49,797 bases of DNA from Nemertoderma westbladi. Lineage: Eukaryota > Animalia > Xenacoelomorpha. How positions within the stretch are numbered: the stretch's first letter is position 1; every line of letters begins with the position of its first letter. The translations under genes and the position numbers were made by a program. The stretch spans positions 1 through 49,797 of the forward strand of contig JAUCBJ010006634.1 in assembly GCA_032718475.1 (NCBI GenBank), given 5' to 3'. This document shows positions 15,486 to 42,471 of this stretch, in pieces. The notes beneath the pieces are model-generated. The model saw only the letters and a list, made by a program, of their open reading frames with translations. It searched no databases and was not told the DNA's origin.

Positions 15486-16094
15486 TTCGAAGCAATCAAC
15501 AGAGAGTACCAGTACAGCGCAGCACGTACCGGTTGCCGGTAGGACTAATACCAATACTGTAATACCCTATCCTAACAGCCTTATGCTGTTATGGCAGTAC
15601 CGTCTGACCGTATGGTAGCAGTAGGCCTTATTACAGTATTGCGTTACTGTATTAGGTCAGTATGCCTACCGGTCCTGTCTGCCTGTAGTTGGTACCGGTA
15701 GTTGCCAAAGCTGCAGGGTATTAAACTGTTAAGTCTGTCATGAAATCACAATCACACCTGAATACCAAGCCACACGCGGATAAGTTCAAAGTAACCGCAT
15801 AAAACAAAGCAGCAGCAGGCCCATATGAAGTTCATCTTCTGTATTATTATTATTACAGCCTTACATTTTACCCCCCATGTGAAGAATACCAGGTTTTTAC
15901 TAAAAACCCATTTTACAGAAGGACTAAATCAAAGGGATTGACTTTTCCGCGTAGGTGTAGCCTACGCGTAAGCGTCGCATAGCAGGCGAAAGAATGCCGT
16001 TTCGCGTAGGTAACCATAATTAATTTATATAATTAGAGATTTCATAAAAGAGAGGTAAATTCAAATAAGCTCAATTCAATATGAAGTTATTTAG

Positions 16095-20222: not shown

Positions 20223-23200
20223 CTTCGAGAAATGAATAAACTTTAGGTGATTAAACACCACAACATCGGTATAAAGGTACCGTATGCAGTATTTGTAGAA
20301 TAAAAAATGTACCCTTCATAAATGACGCCCCTACTCCATGTCCCGGTTTGTCTGAAAATTATAGACGACCTTACACCAGAAACTTCACGCTACAGACATT
20401 TTGTCAAATGTTCAACGACAATGAACATTGTTTTTTGGACTAGGGCTTAGATTTGATCGAATGGAAATCGACAATTCTAGAACTTTTTGTTAAGGGCTTT
20501 CCGCTATTGTTTTTGCACAATGCCCCGGAATATAGTGTCGTAATTCAATGACACGAACCCCCCTAATTTTTCTACAAATCTTAATGAGATTGCATGAAAT
20601 TTGAAACAGAGATAGTTTCCTATCCCTCCTCCTCCGTGGGTGAGCTAGAATATTTATTTTCGCTTTCATTCATTAGCTACACGCGATTGAATAAAGTGTC
20701 ATATTAAATATACCATATTCTGGAATATTTAGTTAATGTATGAATAACGACTTAAAAAAAAGAATGATTAAAGAGGCATTGCATATAGATGTCAATCAAA
20801 TCACTATAAAGTCAAAGAATAACTGCAGTGTAATTATATCAAAAGCCCTAGTTAATTCCAAAAAGCAATGTACAATGTCGTTGAACATTTGAGAAAATGT
20901 CTGTAGCGTAAAGTTTCTGGTGCAAGGTCGTATATAATTTTCAGACAAACCGCGACATGGAGTAGCGGCGGGTCAGAGTAAAACGCGGATCCGGATCAGG
21001 ATCCGGATTCTATCATTTAACATTGTCCCTATGGAAGTCGACTGAATTTACATTTTTAGGGTGTAATCTGCGGATCCGCGCACTGCTAAATTTACCGAAT
21101 CCGTAACCGAGTGTAAAATGCGGATTGGCCTTTTTTCAGATCCGGAACGGAGTGTAAAGCGCGGATTCATATTTTAGGCTAAATCCTGAACGGAGTGTAA
21201 AACGCGGATTCATTTTTCTACTAAATCCGGGATTGGGTGTAAAATACGGATTCAGGTTTATTACAAAGTTTTATTAAATCCGGGAAGGGGTGTAAAACGC
21301 GGATTCAAGTTAATTACCATGTTTTATTGGATCCGGGAAGGGGTGTAAAACGCGGATTCTAGTTAATTACCAAGTTTTATTGGATCCGGGAAGGGGTGTA
21401 AAACGCGGATTTACGTTAATTACTAAGTTTTATTGGATCCGGAATGGAGTGTAAAACACGGATTTACGTTAATTATCAAGTTTTATTGGATCCGGAATGG
21501 AGTGTAAAACACGGATTTACGTTAATTACTAAGTTTTATTGGATCCGGAATGGAGTGTAAAACACGGATTTACGTTAATTACCAAGTTTTATTGGATCCG
21601 AAATGGAGTGTAAAACGCGGATTCAAGTTAATTACCATGTTTTATTGGATCCGGGAAGGGGTGTAAAACGCGGATTCTAGTTAATTACCAAGTTTTATTG
21701 GATCCGGGAAGGGGTGTAAAACGCGGATTTGCGTTAATTACTAAGTTTTATTGGATCCGGAATGGAGTGTAAAACACGGATTTACGTTAATTATCAAGTT
21801 TTATTGGATCCGGAATGGAGTGTAAAACGCGGATTCAAGTTAATTACCATGTTTTATTGGATCCGGGAAGGGGTGTAAAACGCGGATTCTAGTTAATTAC
21901 CAAGTTTTATTGGATCCGGGAAGGGGTGTAAAACGCGGATTCAAGTTAATTACCATGTTTTATTGGATCCGGGAAGGGGTGTAAAACGCGGATTCTAGTT
22001 AATTACCAAGTTTTATTGGATCCGGGAAGGGGTGTAAAACGCGGATTTACGTTAATTACTAAGTTTTATTGGATCCGGAATGGAGTGTAAAACACGGATT
22101 TACGTTAATTACCAAGATTAATTGGATCCGGAATGGAGTGTAAAACACGGATTTACGTTAATTACCAAGTTTTATTGGATCCGGAATGGAGTGTAAAACG
22201 CGGATTCAAGTTAATTACCATGTTTTATTGGATCCGGGAAGGGGTGTAAAACGCGGATTCTAGTTAATTACCAAGTTTTATTGGATCCGGGAAGGGGTGT
22301 AAAACGCGGATTTGCGTTAATTATCAAGTTTTATTGGATCCGGAATGGAGTGTAAAACGCGGATTCAAGTTAATTACCATGTTTTATTGGATCCGGGAAG
22401 GGGTGTAAAACGCGGATTCTAGTTAATTACCAAGTTTTATTGGATCCGGGAAGGGGTGTAAAACGCGGATTTACGTTAATTACTAAGTTTTATTGGATCC
22501 GGAATGGAGTGTAAAACACGGATTTACGTTAATTACCAAGATTAATTGGATCCGGAATGGAGTGTAAAACACGGATTTACGTTAATTACCAAGTTTTATT
22601 GGATCCGGAATGGAGTGTAAAACGCGGATTCAAGTTAATTACCATGTTTTATTGGATCCGGGAAGGGGTGTAAAACGCGGATTCTAGTTAATTACCAAGT
22701 TTTATTGGATCCGGGAAGGGGTGTAAAACGCGGATTTGCGTTAATTATCAAGTTTTATTGGATCCGGAATGGAGTGTAAAACGCGGATTCAAGTTAATTA
22801 CCATGTTTTATTGGATCCGGGAAGGGGTGTAAAACGCGGATTCAAGTTAATTACCATGTTTTATTGGATCCGGGAAGGGGTGTAAAACGCGGATTCTAGT
22901 TAATTACTAAGTTTTATTGGATCCGGGAAGGGGTGTAAAACGCGGATTTGCGTTAATTACTAAGTTTTATTGGATCCGGAATGGAGTGTAAAACACGGAT
23001 TTACGTTAATTACCAAGATTAATTGGATCCGGAATGGAGTGTAAAATACGGATTACGTTAATTACCAAGTTTTATTGGATCCGGAATGGAGTGTAAAACG
23101 TTACAACTGATTTACTGAGGCTGTCATGCCAGCATACTGCTCTACAACTACAGCTGCATCTAGTAGTTAGAATAGTAGAGCTAATACTTTTACTTAATAC

Positions 23201-26200
23201 GGTTTTACTTCATTTAACCACTACAAGAATACGGGAATAATGGAATTTGCCGATACCCAGAATGAATTAACTACCCTCTTGAAATCTGTTAAAGAAAAGA
23301 AAAGTATGTCTAATGGGGAGGAACGTCAGTTTACAGAATGGCTTTTCAAACTCAATACGATATACGTTACCACTCTAGGCGACTTGGCTAAATGTAGCAG
23401 TGATCTAGCCACAGCGCGCCAGAAGGTAATCGACGCGAAAGAGGAAATCATAACCATGAAAGACACGGCAGCTCGGCATTCTTATAGCCATATGGTAATA
23501 AATGGTCAACGCCCGGCATCACGACAAACAACGTCAATAACCCCATCATCATCAGTACACCCGACACGGCAGCATCAAATGAATCAAGGTTGTCCAACGG
23601 CAACCTTCGCCGAATCTTCAAATCCTGATCATTCAATCACGGAACTGCATCGAAGTTTAATACAAAGAGCTATCGGTAGTCCGAATACACTCCTAACTAC
23701 TCCACCCAACGCACAAATCAGCAGACGATCAACAGAAATCCGCAAGGGGAGGAAGATTGGCAACTCGCTCAGATCTCAACGGACAACTACCGGTACCGTT
23801 ACGGCAGCGCCAACTGTTATACAACCAACGAGAAAGGCCCATGTTTACATTGGACGATTAGACAAAACAGTGTCAAATGAGCAGCTGTCAGAATATATCG
23901 AGAAAGAAGGAATTGTCGTAGAAGAAGTTATCCCACTATCGTCAAACACTGGTAATTTCACCAAAACGAACGCATTTCACCTGGTCTGCACCCAAGAGCA
24001 GCGAGACGGCCTCATCAACCCAGATATCTGGGAGGAAGGCATAGTAATCAAGGACTATCGACTCAGTAATGCGGAGCGATTGCAGTTTGGTCTACGCCCT
24101 CGCACCCGCCCGGCAAATCAAACACAATGACTTGGTGCTAACATCGCAGCAACCGAGACACACACACAGGCTGTCACCACGAACCGCAAAACTAAAAAAC
24201 AACAGTTACTTTCAAAAGCACGAGCAGCAGATAAACAAACAATACTCTGTACCGGATGTAATAAACCTTATCGATACTTAGCCAGTCTAGATAAACATCA
24301 GAAACTATGTTCACGCTCCCAAACTCTACACAACCAGCAACTAATGAACGAGTTACCGTTTCCAGTCGACACTCTCCCCCCTCAGAACTCCAACTCTAAC
24401 ACAATCACGCTTATTGGATGGAATGTTGAGGGCGCCAATACAACAATGGAAACAACCATAGATAACTCATTTGTATTGACCGATATTCTGCTACTAACTG
24501 AAACTCTCGATAATGATCTGACGATTCCGGGCTTCTCCTGCAAAAATATTCCTTCTAGCAAAGGTGAATATGGCCGCCCTTTTGGTGGTATTACTGTAGC
24601 AATCAATATGAAACATGGTGCTACGCAGAATGTAATTTACATAAGTGAGTCATTACTGGCAGTTCATTTTGCGAAATTTGTATTCGTATGCAGTTACTTT
24701 AAACCAAACAGCGACGTAGCGGAAATACTACTTGAACTAGTAAATGCGGTAAACACGATCAGATCCACAACGAAACACCCTATTGTAACTGTTGGGGACT
24801 TCAACTGCCGCCTCGACACTGGCGACCGTGGGAGATTGTTAAGCGAAGGGCTACGCGGAGCTGGACTGCACTGCTTATCAGACCCAACTGTCCCCACTTA
24901 CTACAGCTGGAACGGCTCGAGTGTAATTGATCTGGTTTTTGTAGATGAGTCGCTGCTTGATCTAACCACATTAAACGTGAAACCAACGGTCAACACGAAA
25001 CACCAACGCATTGTCATCGATCTACTCACAAATGATATCACGGAGCGCAATCAAAGAACTCCAACTATTAGACGAATTGATACGGAAAAACTCGGTTCTA
25101 TTCTCAACCAAGATGAATTTCAGGCGGCGCTCAACGATGGAGTCGACTCAGCATGTAGCTATATAACATCCGCTATTACTAAATCGGCAATAACGCGCAA
25201 ACCACGGAAATCAAAACCTTGGTTTGATCGTGAATGTTATTTGGCCAAGGAGGAACTCACAGCATGTTTTAACGCAATGCGCATGAATAGTACAGATGAG
25301 TCTAGGGAAGTTCATACAACCACTAAACGGAGGTATAAACTGTTATTATTAAACAAGATGAAATTATATAAAGCGCGGAAAGAAATACGCTTGATCGAAA
25401 ATAGCGAAGAAGATAAAGCATCTTTCTGGAATATCTTAAAGTGTAATCGAACCGCTACTAAACCTGCTGCGCAACAAGTCTCGGAAGAATCGTGGTCTAC
25501 TCATTTTACGAATCTACTATCAACCGAAAATAATCCACAGCTACCAACCATCCCCGAACAGCCAGATAACGACTTAGACAAACCGATCAATCCCGCTGAG
25601 ATCACGGAAGCGGTTTACAGTCAAAAGCCAAATAAAGCAGCTGGTCCGGACGGTATCACCGGTGAAGCCTTGAAGCATGGTTTTGGTCACCTGCTTCCGT
25701 TTTTACTGACATTGTTTAGTGTTTGTTTCGCAACTGCTGCTTGCCCTGCAACCTGGCTAAAATCATACCTAATTATGCTCTATAAGGGTAAGGGAAGTAA
25801 ATTATCCCCGGACTGTTACCGTGGAATAGCGCTACTATCATGTTTGTTTAAAGTATATACTTCGATATTATTCACACGCTTATACGAATTTGCAGAACGC
25901 CGAGGCCTACTACCAGATGCGCAACACGGTTACAGAAAATCACGTTCGACGATCGACGCTGTTAAACGTCTATATACCCGCATCAATTTTGCCCTTGAAC
26001 CTAAGGGTGGCCATTTATACTGCGTATTTGTTGATTTTCGAAAATGTTTCGACTCGATAAACCGAGAGATTCTCTGCAGGAAATTATCGAAACTCGGAGT
26101 AAGTCGAAAGTTTATTATCGCTATCTGGTCTATGATCGCTATCAACTACATATATATCTGTGTTGGAGTTCACATTCTGGAGCCTATTACTCAAACAATT

Positions 26201-29200
26201 GGAGTTGTACAAGGCGATAAACTGTCTCCTTTACTTTTTAGTCTTTTTGTATCAGACCTACCAGCCTATCTCATATTCGCATCAATTTGGATTATAATGT
26301 ATGCTGATGATCTAGTCATATCAGGTGACTCTATCACGGAGGTTCAAGCTAGTCTAGACAAACTCTCAGAATATTGTGAAGTAAATGGAATCCAGGTCAA
26401 TATTGCGAAGACAAAGGTGGTTAAGTTCCGGAAGGGGGGGAGATTATCGAGGACTGACATTCTAGAATATAACGGGCACAAATTGGAATTTCAAAGCTCC
26501 TTTCAATATTTAGGAGTTACTCTATCAACGAAAAATGGATCCAGAGGACACTACGATCATCTATACTCGAAAGGACTCTCCAGTTGTGTTGTAATTGCAA
26601 CAAAGGTAAACCTACACATCGTTTCGCTAGAATCCGCCCAACGTTTATGGCAGTCTATTGTCCTTCCATCGACCACTTATGGCTGCAACGTCTTCACTGC
26701 AAATGGTGACCTAACGCAACTGTGTCATGTTCAACGTGTCCGCGGTTTTTACTGGAAACTCTGGTGTGGAATAAGCAAGTTTGCCTCCACCACAGCCATC
26801 CTAAGTGCCATAGACAACCCGGCTAACTCAGATCCAAACGTGACAGGTCTCACAGGTTTCCGACGCCGCGCGGCAGCGCAGCTATTATCAAACGGTTGCC
26901 ACCACCGCCTATGTACAAAACTCAATTGCTGGAGACCCACGGAAGACTGCACCTGTTGGGTGTGTGGCTCCCTGGCGGCAAACACAGACCACTACAAACT
27001 ATGTACGCGCATACCTCAGTGCAGTTCACACCTAAAGACAGCAATTTGGCTGATGACGACAGATGCTGCAACACTAACTATTTAAATCAATAGAAAGTTC
27101 AAGGCCCGACTATACTGTTTATTTATTTTATCTTATTTAATGTGCCTTATATTATGCCAATCACCCTCTTCCCATCTTTTTATTTAAAAATACTTTTATT
27201 TTATTTAAGTTTATTTTATAAATTTATGTGCTCTATCCAATTACAACTTATCGTTTTAATTATGTTAAATCAAGTGTCATTACAATAGGCATACTTATAA
27301 CCATTTACTCCTTGAGTAATTAAACGTCATATTGAATCTCAATGGAGTGTAAAACACGGATTTATGTTAATTACCAAGTTTTATTGGATCCGGGAAGGGG
27401 TGTAAAACGCGGATTCAAGTTAATTAGTAAGTTTTAATGAACAATTTATAAAACGCATATGCAATAAAGACCCAGACCCTCATCTAGTTACAATTATTAA
27501 TTAGTGCAATGTTTATTGTTCTTTAGTAACTTTTCTTGGCTTGCTGACTTTCCTGGTTTTTTTCTTCTCCGGGCTCGGGGTGCGCGATGTTTGGGTAGTG
27601 AGTTCAAGCGGCTCAACAATGGCTGTATCATTGGTTGGACTCGGAATAACGAATCCCGTAAATGGAACCTTTACAAAGTCATCAATGTCATCCATGTTTA
27701 ATATGAAATTAAATAAGAAATTATACTGAACAGTTCAGCCTCCATTAATTAGGAAGGCAGCAAGGGTAAATCTTTTCGACCTACGCGTAGGCCTACGCGT
27801 AGCTACGCGTAGCTACGCGTAGCTACGCGTAGTTTGTAACTTCCATTCCTGTCATTTACCGGTAGGGCCAGACTTACTGCCTTTTTAACAACTACGCGTA
27901 GGTGTTTTAAAACTACGCGTAGTTATTTTGGAACTACGCGTAGGTATTTTGAAACAACGCGTAGGTGCTACGCGTAGCTACGCGTAGGTGCTACGCGTAC
28001 CAGTCCTGATAACAATGATTTTTCATTTCAGGTCCGGTAGGGTTGAGTTGTTAGGCAAGTATCGGTATATGTCAGGTATTTGATTATCAGACAAATGTAA
28101 TAGCAGAGTCGGAAACTCATATCTCGACATACAGCACTGGTAATAAATAATATTCGGCTCTTTCACATACAAACACAGAGGATGAATAAAAAGTAAACTT
28201 GAAATTCACGTCTCATGATTCAAGTATCTTTGTTTCCATTGGATTATTTAAATATTGAACAGTAGTAAATAAAGCGACCAGTCTACCGGTGAAGAGGTTA
28301 AGCGAAAGCTGATAAACACTGCATATAATCAAATTGTTTGGTCAAATGACAAGTGCAACCAATCATGGTAGACAATTTAGTCTCCCCCTTCCCTTGTCAA
28401 GGGGTTAACATATTAAATACAGTATATCCTTGCCCTATCGTGAACAAAGGCAATAAAAAGCATAGAGAATCGATAAGAACCATCGGCCTATTTCCTTTGT
28501 AAACTATTTTTGAACTCTAAACATTAATTATTAACACATTTTACCGCCCGCAACGCATGAAGTGAAGAATATGTAGTTTTCGCGTATTCCTCTATATAGA
28601 GTATACAGGTATAGGATGCATTACTGTTGAAAGCATTTGATGGTTGTAGGTTGTTTATTGAACATACCGTATTGTGTCTTATTTTAGTACTGACTCGCTT
28701 GGAATACGTAAGCCTACTAATGATAAACGACGTACTGACGTATAGGCATAGTTATGGGTAGCACCTATGCGTAGGTCGCGTAGGACCTACGCGTAGCTAC
28801 GCGTAGCACCTACGCGTAGCTACGCGTAGCACCTACGCGTAGCTACGCGTAGCACCTACGCGTAGTTATTGTTAAAACTCTGAAACTGGTGATATATGAC
28901 CCAATGTTGCGAACTACGCGTAGCTACGCGTAGCTACGCGTAGGCCTACGCGTAGGTCGAAAAGATTTACCTAGGCAGCAACCTTGCAAGGCCTTAAATA
29001 GAAGACGCTATGATGCAGTACAAACTACCGCCAGCTAGGCAGAACAGTGATTCTTGTTTGTAAGGGAGGTTGGGATGGATAAGCCAATCAGGGAACAGGA
29101 CAGTAATCCTACCATACAATTGTCTACAGAGCTGCTCTACCAGAGAGGTCACGTTCCCACGGTAGTATAGTTTTTCAGCTAATCAATATCTAATAATGTC

Positions 29201-32200
29201 TGACGGCCAAACATCACCATCGCCCTTATTAATAATTCATTGGGAAGCATTGACCCCTATTAAGGTGTCCCCCAGAGCCGGATTAAGCTTATGTGTGGCC
29301 CCTAGACATAGACAAATTATTAAGGTGTCTATTAACTATTAAGGTGTCCCCCATTAATGTTTGTGTCCCTCATTAATGTGTGTACCTCATTAATAGTTGT
29401 GTCCCTCATTAACAAACTCAGTAATTAACGTAAATCCGCATTTTACACCCCTTCCCGGATCCAGTAACACTTTATAATTAACCTGAATCAATCCGCGTTT
29501 TACACCACTTCCCGGATCTAGTAACACTTGGTAAATAAATTGAATCCGCGTTTTACACCCCTTTCCGGATCCATTAAAACTTGGCAATTAACGTAAATCC
29601 GTGTTTTACACTCCGTTCCGGATCCAACAAAACTTGGTAATTAACATAAATCCGTGTTTTACACTCCATTCCGGATCCAATAAAACTTGGTAATTAACGT
29701 AAATCCGTGTTTTACACTCCATTCCGGATCCAACAAAACTTGGTAATTAACGTAAATCCGTGTTTTACACTCCATTCCGGATTCAATAAATCTTGGTAAT
29801 TCACGAAAATCCGTGTTTTACACTCCATTCCGGATCCAACAAAACTTGGTAATTAACGAAAATCCGTGTTTTACACTCCATTCCGGATCCAATAAAACTT
29901 GGTAATTAACATAAATCCGTGTTTTACACTCCATTCCGGATCCAATAAAACTTGGTAATTAACGTAAATCCGTGTTTTACACTCCATTCCGGATCCAATA
30001 AAACTTGGTAATTAACGTAAATCCGTGTTTTACACTCCATTCCGGATTCAATAAATCTTGGTAATTCACGAAAATCCGTGTTTTACACTCCATTCCGGAT
30101 CCAACAAAACTTGGTAATTAACGAAAATCCGTGTTTTACACTCCATTCCGGATCCAACAAAACTTGGTAATTCACTAAAATCCGTGTATTACACTCCATT
30201 CCGGATCCAACAAAACTTGGTAATTAACGAAAATCCGTGTTTTACACTCCATTCCGGATCCATTAAAACTTGGTAATTAACGTAAATCCGTATTTTACAC
30301 TCCATTCCGGATCCAATAAAACTTGGTAATTAACGTAAATCCGTGTTTTACACTCCATTCCGGATCCAATAAAACTTGGTAATTAACGTAAATCCGTGTT
30401 TTACACTCCATTCCGGATTCAATAAATCTTGGTAATTCACGAAAATCCGTGTTTTACACTCCATTCCTGATCCAACAAAACTTGGTAATTAACGAAAATC
30501 CGTGTTTTACACTCCATTCCGGATCCAACAAAACTTGGTAATTAACGAAAATCCGTGTATTACACTCCATTCCGGATCCAACAAAACTTGGTAATTAACG
30601 AAAATCTGTGTTTTACACTCCATTCCGGATCCATTAAAACTTGGTAATTAACGTAAATCCGTATTTTACACTCCATTCCGGATTCACAAAATATATGAAT
30701 CCGCGTTTTACACTGCAATACGGATTGCGTATTTCAGAATCCGCATATTACACTCAGTTACGGATTGTATGTAAATCCGGATCCGCCTTTTACACTCGCA
30801 AATCCGGGTCCTGATCCGTATCCGGATCCTGAATCCGGATCCGGATCCGCGTTTTACACCTACCCAGTAGCGGCGTCATTTATGATCTAAATTATATCAT
30901 AAAATAAATATATATAAAATTATATCGTAATTATATATTTTGTCACAAATTGCGACGGTATTTAGATATTAGCCTGATAATTATCGTGATGATCTAACCT
31001 TTTCGATTGCGGCTTCCAGTCCTGACAATTCCTTCAATACTACGTCGCTGTCGTTCTGGGGATGTTGGCGTTTAGCCAAAGCAGATAAAATTGCCAATCG
31101 CTTAGAAACCAGTTCACGTTTCTTATCCCAGAGAAGTTCGGAAGGTGTTAGGAGGGTGACTTGGTTCTCCAAAACTCGCGGTTTGGGGGTGGATAATATT
31201 AGTGGATTCAGTGACTCATCGCGGTTTATTTGAAGCTGATTGAACTTCTTAGATATGCCAGCAGATGGTTTATTGACAGCCCTTAATGGCGGCAGATTCA
31301 CTGACATATCTGTTATGCATGCCAGTGGCTGATAATGTAATCTATCTGCTGTTGTACAGGTTGGTTGAAGAGGTGAAGATCCATCGGTGACGCCCTGAGA
31401 TCTCGGGTTAAATGATCCGGAGGGGTGGAGGTTCAATAGCGACCTACTAGCTGTGTCACATCGGATAGAGTTCAACGACCTCTGGTATGCATCATCTGGT
31501 TGCGACTTCATGGAATGTGAGTCTGGCATGTACAATGGTCTATTAGGTACTCCACCCGAGGGACACATTGGCCAATTGGGTATCCTTCCTGGGGGATGAT
31601 TTGGACGGTCGGGAATTGCACGAGTGGATTTAATTGGCCAATCGTGTCGACCACTGGAGGTATTTATTGTCCGATCGGGTAAACCGCCGAGAGGATTGCT
31701 TGGTCTATTGGGCGCCCACCGCGGTATATTTAATGACTGCTCTTGCGCGACTCCGGGGGCGCTCAACGGCTTACCGGACACGCCATCTGGGACCGAGTTC
31801 GCGGCTCCGCTCGCACCCTTTGCATCCAGAGCTTTCAGATGGAGTTCCTCAGACCAATGTGGGTCGGAGGGGGTGAACCAATGGCATACCCGCAGCGCTA
31901 GGTCAGCAATCTCGCGGGTCATAAACACAGCCAATACCTCAGGAAACCACAGCAACGAGTAAAGTTTAACGAAATGGGGTTCCTCGCCGGTCCCTATCGA
32001 GTAAGTCGCCAACTCGAGCGAGAGTAATCGATCCGTTGTTACGACAACCGGAATGTTGACGAGTTTTTTTGCCAGGAACATCGCATTCATCTGCTCGTCG
32101 TTGGCGTACTTTAGAATGAGCGCTAAGTCAAAGGAAGTGACGTAACCTTGTCCTTCGTAGTTCACTATGTGTAGCTTCCAGTGCTGGAAGTTTATCCGCC

Positions 32201-35200
32201 ACACCCGTTTACGCGGCGGAGGTGGAACGATGATCTCGTCGATGTCGTCACTCAATTCCTCATCAAAAATCTCATCTAATTCTTTATCGATTGAGAGAGA
32301 GGAGACACCCAGAGGTTTGGGTTGAATCATCGCCCCACGCGGTTGTGCCCCCGCCCATGCTACCACACGAGGTTGGGCACCACCCGCCCCCCGCTCCCCA
32401 GCAAACCGGACTTCCGGACTGCCAACCGGTGGCTCCATTAAGGACGCCATCGGGTTGATCAGCGTCCGCAGGAACCGCGGCGTGTCCGGGACGAACTTGG
32501 CGAGCCCCTCGCAGCAGAGGAGATCGTTGATATGAACGTCGTCCTCGGCGGAGACGTCGGTGACCCCGAGGGAGACGACCCCGTTGTCGGTGCTCGTCAC
32601 GTAACCCATCAACGGCTTGTTGGTGACGATCCGGAAGACGCGATTGTTCGTCTCCATCGGCCACTTCCCGTTGAGGCTTGACGCGGGGATCGCAAGGTTG
32701 GTGAGTCGGGATGGGAGCGACTGGATGGCTAGATGGGTGAACTCGTGTTTGAGAATCCGGAGGGTTCGCTTCGGGACGGTGGAGGTGTTACCGTAGTCGA
32801 CGTAGCGCACCTCGACGAAGTCGTTGGTCGGCGAGGCCCCCAGGATGACGGCGCGATGCCAGTTCTGGTCCTCCGGGAAGAGGGCCGCGCAGATCTGTCC
32901 CTCCCGCACCATGTAGTCCGGGAAGGCATAGGAGTGGCTGCAGGGGCCACAGTAGACGTCGTCCAGCCGGTCCATCAGCTGGGCCAGTCGCTCCGAGGTT
33001 TCCGCTCCCCCCCACTGGATGTACATATCCGCCGGAGTAAAGAAAACCGAAATGTAAACCTGAAAACAATCGAGATATATTACTTTGGTTCATAGAATGT
33101 GTTCTAAAATGTTTTCCTACCTCTCCGTATTTCCCTACCTCTCCGTATTTCCCTACCTCTCCGTATTTCCCTACCTCTCCGTATTTCCCTACCTCTCCGT
33201 ATTGCCATATCTCTCCGTATTTCCCTACCACACCGTATTTCCCTACCTCTCCGTATTTCCCTATCTCTCCGTATTTCCCTACCACACCGTGTTTCCCTAC
33301 CTCTCCGTATTTCCCTACTTCTCCGTATTTCCCTACCTCGCCGTATTTCCCTACCACACCGTATTTCCCTACCTCTCCGTATTTCCCTATCTCTCCGTAT
33401 TTCCCTACCTCTCCGTATTTCCCTACCTCTCCGTATTTCCCTACCTCTCCGTATTTCCCTACCTCTCCGTATTTCCCTACCTCTCCGTATTTCCCTACCT
33501 CTCCGTATTTCCCTACCTCTCCGTATTTCCCTATCTCTCCGTATTTCCCTACCACACCGTATTTCCCTACCTCTCCGTATTTCCCTATCTCTCCGTATTT
33601 CCCTACCACACCGTGTTTCCCTACCTCTCCGTATTTCCCTACTTCTCCGTATTTCCCTACCTCGCCGTATTTCCCTACCACACCGTATTTCCCTACCTCT
33701 CCGTATTTCCCTATCTCTCCGTATTTCCCTACCTCTCCGTATTTCCCTACTTCTCCGTATTTCCCTACCTCTCCGTATTTCCCTACCTCTCCGTATTTCC
33801 CTACCTCTCCGTATTTCCCTACCTCTCCGTATTTCCCTACCACACCGTATTTCCCTACCACACCGTATTTCCCTACTTCTCCGTATTTCCCTACCTCTCC
33901 GTATTTCCCTACCTCTCCGTATTTCCCTACCTCTCCGTATTTCCCTACCACACCGTATTTCCCTACCTCTCCGTATTTCCCTACCTCTCCGTATTTCCCT
34001 ATCTCTCCGTATTTCCCCACCTCTCCGTATTTCCCTACTTCTCCGTATTTCCCTACCTCTCCGTATTTCCCTACCTCTCCGTATTTCCCTACCTCTCCGT
34101 ATTTCCCTACCTCTCCGTATTTCCCTACCACACCGTATTTCCCTACCACACCGTATTTCCCTACTTCTCCGTATTTCCCTACCTCTCCGTATTTCCCTAC
34201 CTCTCCGTATTTCCCTACCTCTCCGTATTTCCCTACCACACCGTATTTCCCTACCTCTCCGTATTTCCCTACCTCTCCGTATTTCCCTACCTCTCCATAT
34301 TTCCCTACCACACCGTATTTCCCTATCTCTCCGTATTTCCCTACTTCTCCGTATTTCCCTACCACACCGTATTTCCCTATCTCTCCGTATTTCCCTACTT
34401 CTCCGTATTTCCCTACCACACCGTATTTCCCTACCTCTCCGTATTTCCCTACCTCTCCGTATTTCCCTATCTCTCCGTATTTCCCTACCTCTCCGTATTT
34501 CCCTACTTCTCCGTATTTCCCTACCTCTCCGTATTTCCCTACCTCTCCGTATTTCCCTACTTCTCCGTATTTCCCTACCTCTCCGTATTTCCCTACCTCT
34601 CCGTATTTCCCTACCTCTCCGTATTTCCTTACCTCTCCGTATTTCCCTACCTCTCCGTATTTCCCTACCTCTCCGTATTTCCCTACCTCTCCGTATTTCC
34701 CTACCTCTCCGTATTTCCCTACCACACCGTATTTCCCTACCACACCGTATTTCCCTACCTCTCCGTATTTCCCTACTTCTCCGTATTTCCCTACCTCTCC
34801 GTATTTCCCTACCTCTCCGTATTTCCCTACCTCTCCGTATTTCCCTACCACACCGTATTTCCCTACCTCTCCGTATTTCCCTACCTCTCCGTATTTCCCT
34901 ACCTCTCCGTATTTCCCTACCACACCGTATTTCCCTATCTCTCCGTATTTCCCTACTTCTCCGTATTTCCCTACCACACCGTATTTCCCTATCTCTCCGT
35001 ATTTCCCTACTTCTCCGTATTTCCCTACCACACCGTATTTCCCTACCTCTCCGTATTTCCCTACCTCTCCGTATTTCCCTATCTCTCCGTATTTCCCTAC
35101 CTCTCCGTATTTCCCTACTTCTCCGTATTTCCCTACCTCTCCGTATTTCCCTACCTCTCCGTATTTCCCTACTTCTCCGTATTTCCCTACCTCTCCGTAT

Positions 35201-38200
35201 TTCCCTACCTCTCCGTATTTCCCTACCTCTCCGTATTTCCTTACCTCTCCGTATTTCCCTACCTCTCCGTATTTCCCTACCTCTCCGTATTTCCCTACCT
35301 CTCCGTATTTCCCTACCTCTCCGTATTTCCCTACCTCTCCGTATTTCCCTACCTCTCCGTATTTCCCTATCTCTCCGTATTTCCCTATCTCTCCGTATTT
35401 CCCTACCACACCGTATTTCCCTACCTCTCCGTATTTCCCTACCTCTCCGTATTTCCCTACCTCTCCGTATTTCCCTATCTCTCCGTATTTCCCGACCACA
35501 CCGTATTTCTCTACCACACCGTATTTCCCTATCTCTCCGTATTTCCCTACCACACCGTATTTCCCTACCACACCGTATTTCCCTACCTCTCCGTATTTCC
35601 CTATCTCTCCGTATTTCCCGACCACACCGTATTTCTCTACCACACCGTATTTCCCTATCTCTCCGTATTTCCCTACCACACCGTATTTCCCTACCTCTCC
35701 GTATTTCCCTACTTCTCCGTATTTCCCTACCTCGCCGTATTTCCCTACCACACCGTATTTCCCTACCTCTCCGTATTTCCCTATCTCTCCGTATTTCCCT
35801 ACCACACCGTATTTCCCTATCTCTCCGTATTTCCCTACTTCTCCGTATTTCCCTACCACACCGTATTTCCCTACCACACCGTATTTCCCTACCTCTCCGT
35901 ATTTCCCTACCTCTCCGTATTTCCCTACCTCTCCGTATTTCCCTATCTCTCCGTATTTCCCGACCACACCGTATTTCCCTACCACACCGTATTTCCCTAT
36001 CTCTCCGTATTTCCCTACCTCTCCGTATTTCCCTACCTCTCCGTATTTTCCTACCACACCGTATTTCCCTACCTCGCCGTATTTCCCTACCTCTCCGTAT
36101 TTCCCTACCACACCGTATTTCCCTACCTCTCCGTATTTCCCTACCACACCGTATTTCCCTACCACGCCGTATTTCCCTACCTCTCCGTATTTCCCTACCA
36201 CACCGTATTTCCCTACTTCTGCGTATTTCCCTACCACACCGTATCTCCCTACCTCTCCGTATTTCCCTACCTCTCCGTATTTTCCTACCACACCGTATTT
36301 CCCTATCTCTCCGTATTTCCCTATCTCTCCGTATTTCCCTACCTCGCCGTATTTCCCTACCTCTCCGTATTTCCCTACCTCTCCGTATTTCCCTACCACA
36401 CCGTATTTCCCTACCACACCGTATTTCCCTATCTCTCCGTATTTCCCTACCTCTCCGTATTTCCCTACCTCTCCGTATTTCCCTATCTCTCCGTATTTCC
36501 CTACCTCTCCGTATTTCCCTATCTCTCCGTATTTCCCTACCTCTCCGTATTTCCCTACCTCTCCGTATTTCCCTACCTCTCCGTATTTCCCTACCACACC
36601 GTATTTCCCTACCTCTCCGTATTTCCCTACCTCTCCGTATTTCCCTACCTCTCCGTATTTCCCTACCTCTCCGTATTTCCCTACCACACCGTATTTCCCT
36701 ACCTCTCCGTATTTCCCTCCCACACCGTATTTCCCTACCTCTCCGTATTTCCCTACCTCTCCGTATTTCCCTCCCACACCGTATTTCCCTACCCCACCGT
36801 ATTTCCCTCCCACACCGTATTTCCCCACCTCTCCGTATTTCCCTACCTCTCCGTATTTCCCTACCTCGCCGTATTTCCCTACTTCTCCGTATTTCCCTAC
36901 CTCTCCGTATTTCCCTACCTCTCCGTATTTCCCTACCTCTCCGTATTTCCCTACCTCTCCGTATTTCCCTACCACACCGTATTTCCCTCCCACACCGTAT
37001 TTCCCCACCTCTCCGTATTTCCCTACCTCACCGTATTTCCCCACCTCTCCGTATTTCCCTACCTCACCGTATTTCCATACCTCTCCGTATTTCCCTACCT
37101 CTCCGTATTCCCCTACCTCTCCGTATTTCCCTACCTCTCCGTATTTCCCTACCTCTCCGTATTTCCCTACCACACCGTATTTCCCTACCTCTCCGTATTT
37201 CCCTACCTCTCCGTATTTCCCTACCTCTCCGTATTTCCCTACCACACCGTATTTCCCTACCTCTCCGTATTTCCCATATCTCTCCGTATTTCCCTACCAC
37301 ACCGTATTTCCCTACCACACCGTATTTCCCTACCTCTCCGTATTTCCCTACCTCTCCGTATTTCCCTACCTCTCCGTATTTCCTTACCACACCGTATTTC
37401 CCTACCTCTCCGAATTTCCCTACCACACCGTATTTCCCTACCTCGCCGTATTTCCCTACCTCGCCGTATTTCCCTACCACACCGTATTTCCCTACCTCTC
37501 CGTATTTCCCTACCTCTCCGTATTTCCCTACCTCGCCGTATTTCCCTACCACACCGTATTTCCCTACCTCTCCGTATTTCCCTATCTCTCCGTATTTCCC
37601 TACCTCACCGTATTTCCCTCCCACACCGTATTTCCCTATCTCTCCGTATTTCCCTACCTCTCCGTATTTCCCTACCTCTCCGTATTTCCCTACCTCACCG
37701 TATTTCCCTCCCACACCGTATTTCCCTATCTCTCCGTATTTCCCTACCTCTCCGTATTTCCCTACTTCTCCGTATTTCCCTACCACACCGTATTTCCCTA
37801 CCTCTCCGTATTTCCCTACCTCTCCGTATTTCCCTACCACACCGTATTTCCCTATCTCTCCGTATTTCCCTACCACACCGTATTTCCCTATCTCTCCGTA
37901 TTTCCCTACCACACCGTATTTCCCTATCTCTCCGTATTTCCCTACCACACCGTATTTCCCTATCTCTCCGTATTTCCCTACCTCTCCGTATTTCCCTACT
38001 TCTCCGTATTTCCCTACCACACCGTATTTCCCTACCTCTCCGTATTTCCCTACCTCTCCGTATTTCCCTACCACACCGTATTTCCCTATCTCTCCGTATT
38101 TCCCTACCTCTCCGTATTTCCCTACTTCTCCGTATTTCCCTACGACACCGTATTTCCCTACCTCTCCGTATTTCCCTACCACACCGTATTTCCCTACCTC

Positions 38201-41200
38201 GCCGTATTTCCCTACCTCACCGTATTTCCCCACCTCTCCGTATTTCCCTACCTCACCGTATTTCCCTACCTCTCCGTATTTCCCTACCACACCGTATTTC
38301 CCTACCTCTCCGTATTTCCCTACCTCTCCGTATTTCCCTACCTCGCCGTATTTCCCTACCTCTCCGTATTTCCCTACCACACCGTATTTCCCTACATCTC
38401 CGTATTTCCCTACCTCTCCGTATCTCCCTACCTCTCCGTATTTCCCTACCACACCGTATTTCCCTACCTCTCCGTATTTCCCTACCACACCGTATTTCCC
38501 TACCACACCGTATTTCCCTACCTCTCCGTATTTCCCTACTTCTCCGTATTTCCCTACCTCGCCGTATTTCCTACCTCGCCGTATTTCCTACCTCTCCGTA
38601 TTTCCCTACTTCTCAGTATTTCCCTACCTCTCCGTATTTCCCTACCACACCGTATTTCCCTACCTCTCCGTATTTCCCTACTTCTCCGTATTTCCCTACC
38701 TCGCCGTATTTCCTACCTCTCCGTATTTCCCTACTTCTCCGTATTTCCCTACCTCTCCGTATTTCCCTACCTCTCCGTATTTCCCTACCTCTCCGTATTT
38801 CCCTACTTCTCCGTATTTCCCTACCTCGCCGTATTTCCCTACCTCTCCGTATTTCCCTACCTCTCCGTATTACCCTACCTCTCCGTATTTCCCTACCACA
38901 CCGTATTTCCCTACCTCTCCGTATTTCCCTACCACACCGTATTTCCCTACCTCGGCGTATTTCCCTACCACACCGTATTTCCCTACCTCTCCGTATTTCC
39001 CTACCTCTCCGTATTTCCCTACCACACCGTATTTCCCTACCTCTCCGTATTTCCCTACCTCTCCGTATTTCCCTACCTCGCCGTATTTCCCTACCACACC
39101 GTATTTCCCTACCTCTCCGTATTTCCCTACCTCTCCGTATTTCCCTACCTCTCCGTATTTCCCTACCTCGCCGTATTTCCCTACCTCTCCGTATTTCCCT
39201 ACCACACCGTATTTCCCTACATCTCCGTATTTCCCTACCTCTCCGTATCTCCCTACCTCTCCGTATTTCCCTACCACACCGTATTTCCCTACCTCTCCGT
39301 ATTTCCCTACCACACCGTATTTCCCTACATCTCCGTATTTCCCTACCTCTCCGTATCTCCCTACCTCTCCGTATTTCCCTACCACACCGTATTTCCCTAC
39401 CTCTCCGTATTTCCCTACCACACCATATTTCCCTACCTCTCCGTATTTCCCTATCTCTCCGTATTTCCCTACCTCGCCGTATTTCCCTACCACACCGTAT
39501 TTCCCTACCTCTCCGTATTTCCCTACCTCTCCGTATTTCCCTACCTCTCCGTATTTCCCTACCTCGCCGTATTTCCCTACCTCTCCGTATTTCCCTACCA
39601 CACCGTATTTCCCTACATCTCCGTATTTCCCTACCTCTCCGTATCTCCCTACCTCTCCGTATTTCCCTACCACACCGTATTTCCCTACCTCTCCGTATTT
39701 CCCTACCACACCGTATTTCCCTACATCTCCGTATTTCCCTACCTCTCCGTATCTCCCTACCTCTCCGTATTTCCCTACCACACCGTATTTCCCTACCTCT
39801 CCGTATTTCCCTACCACACCGTATTTCCCTACATCTCCGTATTTCCCTACCTCTCCGTATCTCCCTACCTCTCCGTATTTCCCTACCACACCGTATTTCC
39901 CTACCTCTCCGTATTTCCCTACCACACCGTATTTCCCTACCACACCGTATTTCCCTACCTCCACGTATTTATCGATGGCCGGCGCATTTGGGTACTGGTA
40001 GTAGGTATTGAAGCCAACTGCGTCCACTGGGACAGTCTCGGGGAGGGTGGCTCCGGCCCCCAGACAGGTGTCGCTCGAGTAGACCACGAGGCCGCCCCTG
40101 TCTGCCTCGAACTCCAACCGGACTCCGGGGATACACAGCAGTAGAGTCTGCACGTCCCGGAATCCCAGCTCCTCCAACGATAAACGTTGGTCAGTGCACT
40201 CGAAGTAGGTCTCTATGAAGTTGCTCGTTTCTATGCCACCGGGGACCGCCTAGCATTGGGATAAATACGAAAGGATATGTCGAAAGGATAATAAAAATGT
40301 ATACACTTGTATTCATAAGAGGTATACCGGTACTATTAATTAATAGTTCGCTTGACATTGCGTTGCAGCTGCATGGGTTATTATGGGTGATGAATCATGA
40401 TGATAAAAGAATATTGTTGTCATGATCAACTGGTATCTTTTGGGATCTTCAAAAAAGCGAACGAATTCTACACTGAAAAATATCATATATAATATTGCAG
40501 TTGCGAGTGTGGTGTAAATAAAACTCGGCCAACTCTAACAGAGAATTTGTTACAAAAATATAGGAAAGCAAAATGGGCGTCTAAACCTTTTCGGGGGACT
40601 AAAATATACTCCCATGCAAGGTTCAATGAAAAAACGTCAGATATGCCGCGGCCGCCTAACGGACTAGCCTACAGGATTCATCCACATCATTGGGGTTTCA
40701 TAATGCCTATAGACAAGTCATTTATATTATATAAAATGAGGTCAGAGGTAGATATACATTAGTTTTATAAAGTGGTTCTTCAGAGGCATTGGAAATGATA
40801 ATAATATTATCTTCAACCAGCGAGCTGGTTGAAGGCGGTAAAATGAAGTACGATACACATTACACAACACAATACACAGGCTTAGCTCACACATACAAAA
40901 ATTCAGAAATGTGAGCTGGTGAGGTTCCTTTCACATAGTTACCATGCAATGTACATACACTGTACATACATTATTTAATGAATGAATGGTACCGGTAATT
41001 GAATGAAATTAAAAGGTTACGATGGTAGGTTACCTACTGTGGGTGGGTGGGTGCACTGCAATAGGGCTATTATGTTTAATGTAGAATTTAATAGACCTAG
41101 TTACATTGTGGATGACAATACTTTAAAGTTTGGTTGCCAGTGATCGATGGGAGTTAAAAGGTCCAACTAACAATTGAATAGTCTGATAGTTAGAGTCCGG

Positions 41201-42471
41201 TACCAGTCGGACAGGAATGATTATCATCGACCCCAAGGTCCTGTTTATTATGGAGAAATAAACTGCTAAAGCAGAATTTGTGATCTATTATTCTTTAGTG
41301 TTCGATTTTGTTTCTCTATCTTGTAATTCTGTAATTGCCACTAGATTATGTAAAATGTTTTGATTATCTGAATGTGTGAATCACAATGTCACCTTAATAA
41401 GCCGACTAAAGGTCAAATGTATTCCTTTGTTGGTTGCTTATTTGAATAACGTTACTAAATTATGATTAGCGAAAGAGAAATTCATAATAAAAATAAATTA
41501 AACAAAAGGGATACCGGTACCGGTACCTTAATAATTCGTTGTATCATCCCGGTAAGATGGTAGTCCACCAGGTTGTTAGACGGTGTAGCCTCTGTGAGTC
41601 TACAGATTGTAGACTTCATCAACCAATGGTCTCCCTGCGGTTCGCTATGAATCACAGAGCTAAAGCTGCGAACCAGATCGGTGGCGTCGCGAAAACCGAA
41701 GTAAGCGGGGTTAAAGGCGCGGTTGAACATCTTCTCGAACTCATGTTTAAGTTCGGAGGAGATGAGCCCATTGGGGTGTTCGAGAAGGAGGGCTGTGATG
41801 CTCTCACGGAACTCGTCGCGAGTACGATACGGGGGTTGGAGAGACGGCAGGTCGACGGATTCCGGTTCGGGACCGGAGGCCGGGACATTTAGTGAGATGT
41901 GGAACCCGTCCGAAACCGATTTGACAACGAGCACCTCGCCAAATGCGTTAAAGAACTGCTGGAGACTTGTGTAGCCAAGTCGGGTGTAGTCGAAGGGGTT
42001 GTGGAATCGTTGGATGTAAGCTTCCTGGAAGTCGCCATCAAACATTCCGCTCGGGTAGGCACGGAGCATCTCGACGATTTGATTAACTACGTGCGGAGGG
42101 ACTTCATTCGGTTTATCGATAACCTGCGGGGACTTTCCGGCGTACCGGGGAACCTTGTCCGGTTTGTCCGGAACGTTCGGGGCCCTTCCTGCGTGCGGAG
42201 AAACATCGTGGGGTTCACCAATAGATGCCCTTCCATCTGGGACATCTAATTCGGTTCGGAGGAAGAAGAGGATTTCTCCGCTGCGAGTCTCACGGGTCCA
42301 CAGTTCGTCCCCGAACATATCGAACAGCAGATCTCCGAGTAGGGTGAATCCATATTCTTTGGCGACCAGCTGACTTCCGGTCGTTGTTGAGTAGATATGA
42401 CATAATTCTTTTTTACTCAATCCATCGGGTCGTTTTCTAAGGATTTCTTCCACGTCTTTTAGACAACCCAT
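19878..42471 (-). CDS. TDRD5: LOTUS (OST-HTH) x4 + extended Tudor protein, TDRD5/Tejas-like; 4-exon model ~1213 aa (3-exon model stopping at 30981 gives ~1104 aa)
   Basis: Exons 42471-41527, 40249-39959, 33059-30999 and 20222-19878, all with phase-0 GT-AG junctions. Four LOTUS-like repeats (PxG...Y/F...[YLF]G[FY]...L) precede an eTudor (VEVYIS...[49 protein letters not shown]). Several LOTUS domains plus a single Tudor is the TDRD5 architecture, whereas TDRD7 has three Tudors. Orthology is inferred. Confidence 0.8.
21276..23099 (+). repeat. 53-bp tandem array, left arm of Foldback element (~34 units; ~2 more units at 27341-27436 after the LINE)
   Basis: Unit GGATCCGG(GAAGGG/AATGGA)GTGTAAAAC(G/A)CGGATT...GTTAATTACCAAGTTTTATT; GGATCC every 53 nt. 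Confidence 0.97.
23240..24130 (+). CDS. LINE ORF1 (N-terminal coiled coil, C-terminal RRM-like domain)
   Basis: 296 aa; [20 protein letters not shown]...AFHLVC...[16 protein letters not shown] resembles the RRM-type ORF1 of LINEs; position immediately upstream of the RT ORF. Confidence 0.85.
   Translation: MEFADTQNELTTLLKSVKEKKSMSNGEERQFTEWLFKLNTIYVTTLGDLAKCSSDLATARQKVIDAKEEIITMKDTAARHSYSHMVINGQRPASRQTTSITPSSSVHPTRQHQMNQGCPTATFAESSNPDHSITELHRSLIQRAIGSPNTLLTTPPNAQISRRSTEIRKGRKIGNSLRSQRTTTGTVTAAPTVIQPTRKAHVYIGRLDKTVSNEQLSEYIEKEGIVVEEVIPLSSNTGNFTKTNAFHLVCTQEQRDGLINPDIWEEGIVIKDYRLSNAERLQFGLRPRTRPANQTQ
24344..27085 (+). CDS. LINE ORF2: AP endonuclease + reverse transcriptase + C-terminal Cys/His domain (frame open from 24131)
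   Basis: APE motifs WNVEG, LTET, GDFN, SVIDL; RT motifs [44 protein letters not shown]; C-terminal CWVC-x8-H-x3-C. Confidence 0.95.
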   Translation: MNELPFPVDTLPPQNSNSNTITLIGWNVEGANTTMETTIDNSFVLTDILLLTETLDNDLTIPGFSCKNIPSSKGEYGRPFGGITVAINMKHGATQNVIYISESLLAVHFAKFVFVCSYFKPNSDVAEILLELVNAVNTIRSTTKHPIVTVGDFNCRLDTGDRGRLLSEGLRGAGLHCLSDPTVPTYYSWNGSSVIDLVFVDESLLDLTTLNVKPTVNTKHQRIVIDLLTNDITERNQRTPTIRRIDTEKLGSILNQDEFQAALNDGVDSACSYITSAITKSAITRKPRKSKPWFDRECYLAKEELTACFNAMRMNSTDESREVHTTTKRRYKLLLLNKMKLYKARKEIRLIENSEEDKASFWNILKCNRTATKPAAQQVSEESWSTHFTNLLSTENNPQLPTIPEQPDNDLDKPINPAEITEAVYSQKPNKAAGPDGITGEALKHGFGHLLPFLLTLFSVCFATAACPATWLKSYLIMLYKGKGSKLSPDCYRGIALLSCLFKVYTSILFTRLYEFAERRGLLPDAQHGYRKSRSTIDAVKRLYTRINFALEPKGGHLYCVFVDFRKCFDSINREILCRKLSKLGVSRKFIIAIWSMIAINYIYICVGVHILEPITQTIGVVQGDKLSPLLFSLFVSDLPAYLIFASIWIIMYADDLVISGDSITEVQASLDKLSEYCEVNGIQVNIAKTKVVKFRKGGRLSRTDILEYNGHKLEFQSSFQYLGVTLSTKNGSRGHYDHLYSKGLSSCVVIATKVNLHIVSLESAQRLWQSIVLPSTTYGCNVFTANGDLTQLCHVQRVRGFYWKLWCGISKFASTTAILSAIDNPANSDPNVTGLTGFRRRAAAQLLSNGCHHRLCTKLNCWRPTEDCTCWVCGSLAANTDHYKLCTRIPQCSSHLKTAIWLMTTDAATLTI
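27764..28972. mobile_element. Non-autonomous Mutator/Foldback-like element nested in the larger element
   Basis: TIR GGTAAATCTTTTCGACCTACGCGTAGGCCTACGCGTAGCTACGCG at both ends; 9-bp TSD AGGCAGCAA at 27755-27763 and 28973-28981; subterminal arrays of the palindrome CTACGCGTAG. Confidence 0.9.
29420..30690 (-). repeat. 53-bp tandem array, right arm of Foldback element (~24 units, inverted)
   Basis: Unit AATTAACGTAAATCCGTGTTTTACACTCCATTCCGGATCCAATAAAACTTGGT is the reverse complement of the left-arm unit. Confidence 0.97.
30999..33059 (-). CDS. TDRD5: TDRD5-like exon 3 (extended Tudor, second globular domain, disordered region, coiled coil)
   Basis: TTGTTTTCAG|GTT TAC ATT acceptor; open frame to AAG|GTTAGA (putative donor) or, if unspliced, to TAA at 30981. 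Confidence 0.85.
33115..39970. repeat. 18-bp minisatellite, ~380 copies (plus strand CCCTACCTCTCCGTATTT; minus strand AAATACGGAGAGGTAGGG)
   Basis: Directly visible; recurrent variants CCACACC, TCTCTCC, CTTCTCC, CCTCGCC, CATCTCC; three 17-nt units near 38570-38715 and one 19-nt unit near 37275. Confidence 0.99.
39959..40249 (-). CDS. TDRD5: TDRD5-like exon 2 (rest of LOTUS 4 and linker)
   Basis: TAG|GCG GTC CCC GGT acceptor; [42 protein letters not shown]...DKYVE; GAG|GTAGGG donor (first of many possible donors). Confidence 0.8.
41527..42471 (-). CDS. TDRD5: TDRD5-like exon 1 (LOTUS 1-3 and start of LOTUS 4)
   Basis: ATG at 42471; ILRKRPDGL...[20 protein letters not shown]...[20 protein letters not shown]...[11 protein letters not shown]; ends IQRIIK|GTACCG. 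Confidence 0.85.

What the first reader, a model, noticed from the sequence alone, without database searches (positions are those of the whole stretch)
33060..39970. Minisatellite made of ~380 copies of the Tudor gene's own 5' splice junction: a possible tunable (KYGEVG)n insert
Seen: exon 2 ends AAA TAC GTG GAG|GTAGGG, and the array unit on the coding strand is AAA TAC GGA GAG|GTAGGG, i.e. 12 nt of exon plus 6 nt of intron, exactly 6 codons. After the last unit (GAG|GTAGGA at 33120) only a 61-nt unique segment remains before the acceptor at 33060, which looks like the ancestral small intron. Most units therefore carry the same GAG|GTAGGG donor as the true exon end, and units with ATA lack it. 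The frame is open from exon 2 for ~60 units until TAA at 38870, so any of those donors would splice in frame. Many recurrent variants are synonymous or conservative in this frame (GGA/GGC/GGT, GAG/GAA, GTA/GTG/GTC, TAC/TAT, V/I, K/R, E/D), although E/V is also common. Established: TDRD5/Tejas proteins scaffold nuage/germ granules. Inference: either donor choice yields a ladder of isoforms with a Gly/Tyr/Lys low-complexity tract at the start of the extended Tudor domain, or the spliceosome selects the most distal of hundreds of near-identical donors. Either outcome is unusual.
Basis: partly seen in the sequence, partly recalled or inferred. Interest (0 to 1): 0.85.

Follow-up and report, generated by a model that had tools for sequence, protein, structure and literature searches.

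The report
Splice-donor minisatellite in TDRD5 intron
An 18-base piece matching a predicted exon end and its splice signal stands in 381 tandem copies in a likely germline gene (TDRD5-like) of an animal; the copies change as if unselected and splicing at a later copy would break a conserved protein strand, so the cell likely uses mainly the first signal, as in known human and lancelet repeats of this kind.

Summary
The array is real: 381 units of 18 nt (39970-33115, minus strand). Unit 1 is the last 12 nt of predicted exon 2 plus GTAGGG; 337 of 381 units keep GT. The gene is TDRD5-like (LOTUS domains, one extended Tudor). Splicing at the first donor aligns across the junction with 15 homologues, whose exon-end residues are conserved, so the repeat likely grew out of the exon. 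A tunable (KYGEVG)n insert is poorly supported. Synonymous alleles are 7 of 24 (P 0.23-0.44) and stops 2 of 24, as expected without selection; one subset test is borderline (7 of 17, P 0.03-0.08). Each later donor would put glycine at a strand position where 0 of 15 homologues and 1 of 927 Tudor domains have it. No RNA run was listed, so donor use is untested. The arrangement is published: human F7, IFI6 and CBS minisatellites and lancelet 'mirages', where the first donor dominates. This scan noted the same kind of array before on other DNA, in 12 listed notes from this genome (unchecked by me). Verdict: a large, short-period, in-frame new member of a known kind; the genome-wide excess of such arrays matters more than this locus.

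The parts
41527..42471 (-). Predicted coding exon 1 of a TDRD5-like gene, three LOTUS (OST-HTH) domains
   Evidence: Pfam PF12872, 3 stretches, E 7.6e-25; starts at ATG, ends phase 0 before GT; no RNA support
39959..40249 (-). Predicted exon 2 (291 nt): a fourth LOTUS-like stretch, linker, and the first residues of extended-Tudor strand 1
   Evidence: No Pfam hit at E 0.1; pairwise match to a LOTUS region of P0001, E 3e-6; its end aligns with 15 homologues
39953..39970 (-). Unit 1: last 12 nt of exon 2 plus the first donor GTAGGG (intron starts at 39958)
   Evidence: Only unit with the exon's Val codon; at least 2 changes from every other 18-nt unit
33115..39970 (-). 18-nt minisatellite, 381 units, 337 with GT, 80% purine on the coding strand, built of duplicated blocks
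   Evidence: a 23-unit string occurs twice; shuffled maximum 9
38870..38872 (-). First in-frame stop (TAA, unit 62); 60 GT donors, the first included, lie in frame upstream of it
33060..33120 (-). Last donor (GTAGGA at 33120), 55-nt unique tail and acceptor TTTTCAG ending at 33060
   Evidence: ancestral-intron reading not tested
30981..33059 (-). Predicted exon 3: extended Tudor domain and C-terminal region, 692 codons and stop
   Evidence: Pfam PF00567, E 2.9e-19; 36-46% identity to 15 LOTUS+Tudor proteins; groups with them at 100/99 support

Best explanation
This is an 18-nt minisatellite of 381 copies whose first copy spans the predicted exon 2/intron 2 junction of a TDRD5-like gene; it likely arose by a short duplication of the junction, likely expanded without selection, and is likely spliced out mainly from the first donor. 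Shown: the array, its block structure, the match of unit 1 to the exon end, the conserved protein across the junction. Inferred: slippage between two AAA triplets 18 nt apart made copy 2; copy 2 changed GTG to GGN and was amplified by unequal exchange, while the exonic copy stayed fixed. Inferred from mammalian work: the first donor wins because it closes a normal 291-nt exon and is met first; neighbours 18 nt apart are too close for two U1 particles; every unit added to the exon adds a UAGG silencer; and any donor beyond unit 61 gives a stop or frameshift. A small leak to the next few donors (+6, +12, +18 residues), as in IFI6 and CBS, is possible and would likely give a weakened Tudor domain.
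For: Exons joined at the first donor give one 1104-codon frame, and the spacer before the strand is 17 residues, as in 11 of 15 homologues (range 17-22). Homologues have E/D at -1 (15 of 15), an aromatic residue at -3 (14 of 15) and I/V/F/L/T at -2 (15 of 15), so the exon end predates the repeat. 377 of 380 later units encode Gly at -2; Gly occurs there in 0 of 15 homologues and 1 of 927 aligned Tudor domains. An AlphaFold model of homologue P0001 puts the junction inside strand 512-522 (block pLDDT 69-76). Profile score falls from 240.6 bits (first donor) to 229.4 (+1 unit) and the match splits from +3 units. Alleles: 7 of 24 synonymous against 5.3-6.3 expected, 2 of 24 stops against 1.5-2.2. 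Units 2 and 3 pair less well with U1 (-8.2 vs -9.8 kcal/mol); only 2 of 337 donors pair better than the first. Precedent: PMC1557585, PMC3087553, PMC3902484.
Against: No RNA was seen, so exon borders and donor use are predictions. 202 other GT donors pair with U1 as well as the first. In HeLa work, of two strong donors 45 nt or more apart the intron-proximal one is used almost always (PMC3413131), which predicts the opposite choice. Recurrent alleles are 7 of 17 synonymous (P 0.03-0.08) and the copy-weighted share is 0.49 (P 0.07-0.11). The open proximal 60 units keep GT in 59 of 60 against 87% in the rest. One unchecked scan note from this genome (e1-10614089) reports splicing from an internal copy at similar depth. 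All mechanistic precedents are mammalian or lancelet.
Confidence: 0.8

Rival explanations
1. Functional isoform ladder: many of the 59 in-frame, stop-free later donors are used and add a Gly/Tyr/Lys/Val tract that tunes TDRD5 in germ granules.
For: Unit is 6 codons; 60 GT donors in frame before the first stop; borderline synonymous excess among recurrent alleles; 59 of 60 proximal units keep GT; IFI6 makes three mRNAs from repeat donors (PMC4526556 passage).
Against: Main allele tests fit neutrality; the antisense frame that shares third positions scores as well (8 of 17, P 0.02-0.04), and 6 frames and 4 statistics were tried. Chance that 6 randomly placed breaks miss the first 60 units is 0.35. 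The tract lands inside strand 1 and swaps Val for Gly. None of 15 homologues has more than 5 extra residues there. One in three unit lengths is in frame by chance.
Confidence: 0.06
2. The array is a brake: intron-proximal donors (up to 33120, leaving a 61-nt intron) often win, so many transcripts keep kilobases of repeat with stops and are degraded; array length then sets TDRD5 dose.
For: Proximal preference for strong donors 45 nt or more apart in HeLa (PMC3413131); the two strongest donors lie at 35244 and 34632; a CBS VNTR paper title reports reduced enzyme activity (reference list of PMC1557585; paper not read).
Against: All three exons are intact; F7 constructs with 8-12 repeats still used only the most upstream site; 61 nt is shorter than the 5 other predicted introns in the window (132-5562 nt).
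Confidence: 0.08
3. The array is real but its length and the stops or indels are assembly errors, or the units serve as recursive splice sites (AG|GT).
For: The three 17-nt units lose one G from a G run; no reads could be laid. Most units contain AG directly before GT.
Against: The 17-nt units 70 and 77 recur in similar block contexts and long unit strings are duplicated exactly, as in real array turnover. The array is 80% purine with no pyrimidine tract before the AGs, so the units are poor acceptors.
Confidence: 0.06

Closest known systems
Human F7 intron 7 37-bp VNTR, with IFI6 (6-16), CBS intron 13, LMNB2 and PDGF intron 4 minisatellites (PMC1557585; read: abstract, introduction, part 3 of 6 of the text, discussion, passages)
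   Same: First monomer spans the exon-intron boundary, so the donor is reiterated into the intron. F7, LMNB2 and PDGF use only the first donor; IFI6 and CBS use two more.
   Different: 381 copies against 5-26; 18-nt unit against 31-100 (IFI6's 12-nt in-frame unit is recalled, not from a call; its primary paper was not available); non-mammalian; donor use here untested.
Lancelet 'mirage' minisatellites (Adh3, globins BflGb6/BflGb9, troponin C, PGBD5; PMC3087553 and PMC3902484, passages)
   Same: Tandem repeats of an exon-intron boundary in an invertebrate, unit 10-160 bp, concerted evolution with the boundary unit left out, normal splicing reported.
   Different: The globin mirages cited have 3-6 units; this array has 381 and fills 99% of a 6.9-kb intron.
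TDRD5/Tejas (PMC8953433, passages)
   Same: N-terminal LOTUS domains and a single extended Tudor domain; best single-domain matches and tree place it with TDRD5-annotated proteins.
   Different: Long branch (45% identity at best); a fourth LOTUS-like stretch; germline expression and PIWI or Vasa binding not tested.

Membership tests
Junction-spanning (mirage/F7-type) minisatellite | Head-to-tail array with unit of about 10-160 bp | tested here: met
   Period 18, 381 copies, 91% matches
Junction-spanning (mirage/F7-type) minisatellite | First unit spans an exon-intron boundary of the host gene | tested here: met
   By protein homology across the junction; not by RNA
Junction-spanning (mirage/F7-type) minisatellite | Downstream units reiterate the splice signal | tested here: met
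   337 of 381 with GT; 202 with GAG|GTAGGG
Junction-spanning (mirage/F7-type) minisatellite | Concerted evolution inside, boundary unit distinct | tested here: met
   Unit 1 differs by at least 2 nt from all others; 23-unit block duplicated
Junction-spanning (mirage/F7-type) minisatellite | Normal splicing from the first donor(s) | not testable with these tools
   No RNA holder listed
Junction-spanning (mirage/F7-type) minisatellite | Length polymorphism between alleles | not testable with these tools
   One sequence only; no genome or runs held
Coding tandem repeat under protein selection | Excess of synonymous and deficit of stop alleles in the coding frame | tested here: not met
   7 of 24 synonymous, P 0.23-0.44; 2 of 24 stops; recurrent subset borderline, P 0.03-0.08
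TDRD5/Tejas | N-terminal LOTUS domains plus one extended Tudor domain | tested here: met
   Pfam: 3 LOTUS stretches in exon 1, 1 Tudor in exon 3
TDRD5/Tejas | Tudor domain groups with TDRD5 proteins | tested here: met
   16-row set (window + 15 LOTUS/Tudor homologues) at 100/99 in a 44-row tree; midpoint root, no named TDRD7 row included
TDRD5/Tejas | Germline expression, nuage location, PIWI/Vasa binding | not testable with these tools
   No expression data

The most novel reading that the evidence does not exclude
In this animal, 5' splice sites are hot spots of runaway repeat growth, and at this locus the 18-nt in-frame unit lets the spliceosome slide over dozens of donors, giving germ cells a ladder of TDRD5 isoforms whose Gly/Tyr/Lys insert breaks strand 1 of the Tudor domain and so detunes PIWI binding in proportion to array structure: a splicing-read repeat dial on a piRNA scaffold.
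Probability: 0.06. Interest if true: 0.75.

Novelty: new member of a known kind. Interest (0 to 1): 0.3.

Why it matters
If the best reading holds, the locus is a natural test of 5' splice-site choice at an extreme: 337 donors, 18 nt apart, 202 as strong as the real one, in a non-mammalian animal. Upstream scanning or exon definition and the intron-proximal rule make opposite predictions here, and because the first 60 donors are in frame, decay of stop-containing RNA would not hide leaky choices. One RT-PCR or a long-read run reads this out. The locus itself is not a new system. The larger question, raised by unchecked scan notes, is why this genome has so many giant donor-anchored arrays.

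Tried and rejected
RNA: no RNA holder was listed for exon 3, so no reads were laid; this is no evidence on expression. No whole genome is held, so other loci with this 18-mer could not be counted; a two-unit pattern gave 0 hits in metagenome contigs and a look-alike search of scan notes gave 0. Orthologous intron: the metagenome protein scan gave 2 loci; L001 covers only query residues 104-192 and L002 92-125, neither reaching the junction (L002 not read). No transcript-derived protein of this gene turned up at 380-1211 aa, under 380 aa, or among the best 150 representatives; lengths above 1211 aa were not searched by words. Selection for weaker donors: alleles inside the donor window are not clearly more copied than those outside (P 0.08). 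G-quadruplex masking: G4Hunter mean 0.91, 5% of windows at 1.2 or more, weak. Recursive splicing: no pyrimidine tract. Exon 1 gave no solved-structure hit. The IFI6 primary paper is not held. Two searches for a published genome-wide case in invertebrates gave 0 and 2 unrelated papers; the library lacks most subscription journals, so this does not show absence. No supplements were read. One allele (position 12 G to C) is synonymous on its own background but was scored as a replacement in the permutation; counting it gives 8 of 24, not re-tested. The 4 units of 17 or 19 nt and unit 1 were left out of the allele counts.
Full report
Observation. The window holds a tandem array of period 18 at 33112-39970 with 381.2 copies and 91% matches; 381 pattern matches stand against 0.15 expected. 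Parsed on the minus strand it has 381 units from 39970 to 33115. Unit 1 is AAATACGTGGAG|GTAGGG; the commonest unit (165 copies) is AAATACGGAGAG|GTAGGG and the second (75) AAATACGGTGTG|GTAGGG. 337 of 381 units keep GT and 202 carry GAG|GTAGGG. The frame from exon 2 is open through unit 61; TAA follows at 38872-38870, then a TGA (unit 76), three 17-nt units (70, 77, 78) and one 19-nt unit (150). The last donor at 33120 lies 61 nt from the acceptor end at 33060; 55 nt of this are unique.

The host gene. Three minus-strand exons (42471-41527, 40249-39959, 33059-30981), all phase 0 with GT-AG ends, give a 1104-codon frame when joined at the first donor. Pfam finds three LOTUS stretches in exon 1 and one Tudor domain in exon 3, nothing in exon 2; exon 2 matches a LOTUS region of homologue P0001 pairwise (E 3e-6). 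The 14 best single-domain matches are LOTUS+Tudor proteins, several named TDRD5 by their sources, and the window's Tudor domain sits with all 15 such proteins at 100/99 support on a long branch (44 rows, no named TDRD7). LOTUS domains plus one extended Tudor is the TDRD5 layout (PMC8953433 passages). The exon borders rest on homology, not RNA.

Which came first. Exon 2 ends Lys-Tyr-Val-Glu and exon 3 begins Val-Tyr-Ile. In 15 homologues the matching columns hold Y/F/H/M, then I/V/F/L/T, then E/D, then V/L/I. The exon end is therefore old protein sequence, and the repeat grew from it. No other unit has the exon's GTG codon (0 of 380): all descend from a changed second copy. The array's edges show AAA at both ends, 18 nt apart in the inferred ancestor, which fits slippage; this step is inference. 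A 23-unit string occurs twice (shuffled maximum 9), so growth came by block duplication and recurrent variants are not independent events.

Is the array read as protein? Of 24 distinct substitution alleles in the 376 later 18-nt units, 7 are synonymous (5.3-6.3 expected, P 0.23-0.44) and 2 are stops (1.5-2.2 expected). Against my reading: alleles seen twice or more are 7 of 17 synonymous (P 0.03-0.08) and the copy-weighted share is 0.49 (P 0.07-0.11). But an antisense frame with the same third positions scores 8 of 17, and many tests were run. Six breaks placed at random miss the first 60 units with probability 0.35. The same codon frame is stop-free over the last 232 units, and the antisense frames have no stops, so openness comes with the unit. 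The proximal 60 units keep GT in 59 cases against 87% elsewhere; block duplication can produce this, but I did not test it.

What an insert would do. 377 of the 380 later units encode Gly, 2 Ala and 1 a stop at the codon that is Val in the exon. Gly is found there in 0 of 15 homologues and 1 of 927 aligned Tudor domains. An AlphaFold model of P0001 places the junction inside one strand, residues 512-522, at block pLDDT 69-76 in an otherwise weak Tudor model. Against a profile of the 15 homologues, the first-donor form scores 240.6 bits, +1 unit 229.4, +2 units 224.3, and from +3 units the match splits. The insert would not sit harmlessly before the domain; it would interrupt its first strand.

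How the donor is likely chosen. By U1 pairing, 202 other donors equal the first, 133 are weaker and 2 stronger; units 2 and 3 are weaker (the U1 motif is recalled). In F7, only the most upstream of identical donors is used, also with 8-12 repeats and with stronger downstream sites; LMNB2 and PDGF behave alike; IFI6 and CBS use two more (PMC1557585). Lancelet mirages do not disturb splicing (PMC3087553, PMC3902484). Each added unit would bring a UAGG into the exon (351 TAGGGA), and exonic UAGG silences exons through hnRNP A1 (PMC1079783, abstract only). The counter-evidence is PMC3413131 (passages): two strong donors 45 nt or more apart favour the intron-proximal one, with a threshold near 30 nt put down to steric interference. 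An 18-nt spacing is under that threshold for neighbours but not for the array as a whole. No RNA run was listed, so none of this is shown for this gene.

Context. Scan notes, unchecked by me, list 12 distinct findings of junction arrays in other genes of this genome, with 12 to about 2100 copies; several report a transcript using the first donor, two of them with in-frame units, and one reports an internal copy in use as well. They gave me the lancelet lead, which I then read. They suggest a genome-wide mutational habit, in which an in-frame unit needs no special explanation. In this window none of the other arrays in the actin-related gene lies on a predicted junction.

Verdict. Observation confirmed; junction origin supported; tunable insert unlikely (0.06). 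New member of a known kind, notable for copy number, short period and frame. Interest 0.3.

Noticed in passing
window 21108-30798: Two arrays of a 53-bp unit (21225-23100 and 29414-30683, about 87% identical) face each other in inverted orientation and enclose a LINE-like element with two open frames (23198-24130, 310 aa; 24131-27085, 984 aa, endonuclease/reverse-transcriptase-like by eye) and CTACGCGTAG-rich repeats; it may be a foldback-type element. One arm starts under 200 nt after the TDRD5-like stop codon.
   Followed up: partly
window 6877-15500 (-): Actin-related gene (Arp1/centractin-like by eye, not searched) with predicted introns of 873, 894, 132 and 5562 nt; a 37-bp array (7124-7351) ends about 40 nt upstream of the last acceptor but does not include it.
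   Followed up: partly
window 33115-39970 (-): The coding strand is 43% G and 6% C with a GGG in every unit, so it may form R-loops when transcribed. LOTUS domains are reported to bind G-rich RNA (passage in PMC8953433), so binding of the protein to its own intron RNA is conceivable but has no support here.
   Followed up: no
window 37291-38872 (-): All six frame-breaking units (2 stops, 4 indels) lie in units 62-150, five of them in units 62-78; the 61 units before and the 231 after have none.
   Followed up: partly
window 16443-17216 and about 14770-14890: A 68-bp array upstream of the actin-related gene has degenerate relatives inside its first intron, seen by eye.
   Followed up: no
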